From assembly GCA_029559155.1 (NCBI GenBank), contig JAKQCM010000240.1:3130-67129 (forward strand): a stretch of 64,000 nucleotides of DNA, given 5' to 3'; not shown here. Origin of the DNA: Chloroflexota bacterium. GTDB lineage: Bacteria; Chloroflexota; Anaerolineae; Promineifilales; Promineifilaceae. Below, a report on this DNA, generated by a model with database tools, continues.

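What the first reader, a model, noticed from the sequence alone, without database searches (positions are those of the whole stretch)
344..63456. Highly iterated octamer palindrome ACGGCCGT (HIP1-like), about one copy per 560 bp
My manual scan finds roughly 115 exact ACGGCCGT sites in 64 kb. With A and T near 0.21 and G and C near 0.29, the composition-based expectation is only about 1.5-2.

Sites occur in genes on both strands, in all three frames and in intergenic DNA (for example 20501 and 55911). About 20 one-mismatch relatives (CCGGCCGT, TCGGCCGT, ACGGCCGC, GCGGCCGT) are also present.

The only well-known analogue is HIP1 (GCGATCGC) of cyanobacteria, whose function is still debated. Over-represented uptake sequences (DUS/USS) are another precedent, but those are not palindromic octamers scattered in coding frames.

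The core contains the EagI/Eco52I-type site CGGCCG. A link to a methyltransferase, a repair or recombination signal, or a nucleoid protein is therefore conceivable. I am not aware of this word having been described.
Basis: seen in the sequence. Interest (0 to 1): 0.8.

Follow-up and report, generated by a model that had tools for sequence, protein, structure and literature searches.

The report, continued
Noticed in passing
L342 (=L092 contig IMGVR_UViG_3300037515_000543), L343, L345 (=L158 contig IMGVR_UViG_3300048592_001391), L109/L344 (IMGVR_UViG_3300033417_000002), L156, L157, L175, L096, L183, L210: Tailed-phage contigs and plasmid/ICE-like contigs in IMG/VR carry ACGGCCGT at 1.2-4.0 sites/kb. 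The phage contigs encode terminase, portal, protease, capsid and tail genes. Stretches not selected by motif have 2.0, 2.65 and 3.55 sites/kb, above all 11 chromosomal loci (0.7-1.8/kb). Their hosts are unknown.
   Followed up: partly
L332 (GCA_963852745.1, CAWKUD010000007.1:1256938-1281398): A basal Promineifilum-like relative (rpoC 77% identical) lacks the octamer (4 copies). It has 61 CGGCCG hexamers in 24 kb, about 4 times the composition expectation, with no preference for flanking A/T. This may be an ancestral or alternative state of the same system.
   Followed up: partly
Metagenome loci such as L225, L232, L233, L244, L248, L265, L266, L313 (contig prefixes Ga0056108, Ga0056133-135, Ga0209259, Ga0209459): A degenerate tandem satellite with a 12-bp unit, (TGTACACGGCCG)n, gives up to 18 ACGGCCGT per kb on short contigs. 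Tandem Repeats Finder reports about 122 copies in L248. It is unrelated to the dispersed palindrome and its source organism is unknown.
   Followed up: partly
window 32650-33760 (minus strand), frameshift site near 33679: The release-factor gene upstream of rpoC appears to be prfB with the classic +1 programmed frameshift: CTT TGA C preceded by a Shine-Dalgarno-like GGAGG. The listed ORF (311 aa) is only the part after the frameshift; orthologues are called at 347-366 aa.
   Followed up: partly
window 14837-20360 (minus strand): This is a conserved gene pair. One gene encodes a 1400-aa protein with TCAD9, a kinase-like (APH) domain, NUDIX and an AAA ATPase. The other encodes a 436-aa AAA protein ending in effector-associated domain EAD7. 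These domains are typical of 'ternary complex' conflict systems. The pair is syntenic in several clade members and has a low motif density (0.7/kb in the large gene).
   Followed up: no
window 49855-52789: This is the longest motif-free stretch, 2.9 kb (P about 0.005 at 1.8 sites/kb). It covers four small genes (DUF4395, DUF4386, DUF6326 and one with no match) and has a lower GC content (50.4% against 54.4%). It may be recently acquired DNA.
   Followed up: no
L336 21894-22184, opposite window 20498 (next to the intergenic site at 20501-20508): In the sister-species MAGs, an insert of variable length (about 250-290 bp) begins 3 nt from the intergenic motif copy. It contains direct repeats of about 65 nt (GTTGTAGCCGCGATTTCCAATCGCGTCCGCC...) and a long poly-G run that looks like an assembly artefact. 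This is a single anecdote of an indel boundary at a site.
   Followed up: no
window 26814-33585 and all clade loci (L082-L091, L332-L341): rpoC stands alone between prfB and a polyprenyl synthase gene. No rpoB is adjacent in any locus of the clade.
   Followed up: no
window 2957-3363 (minus strand): A cluster of three tRNA genes: Arg-ACG, Ser-GCT and Ser-TGA. None contains the motif; the nearest copy is at 3403.
   Followed up: no
window 39175-44967 (minus strand): A 1930-aa TPR-rich protein with a weak ANTAR hit carries 13 motif copies, 11 of them as Thr-Ala-Val. It is conserved, with variable length (1807-2201 aa), in the clade loci.
   Followed up: no
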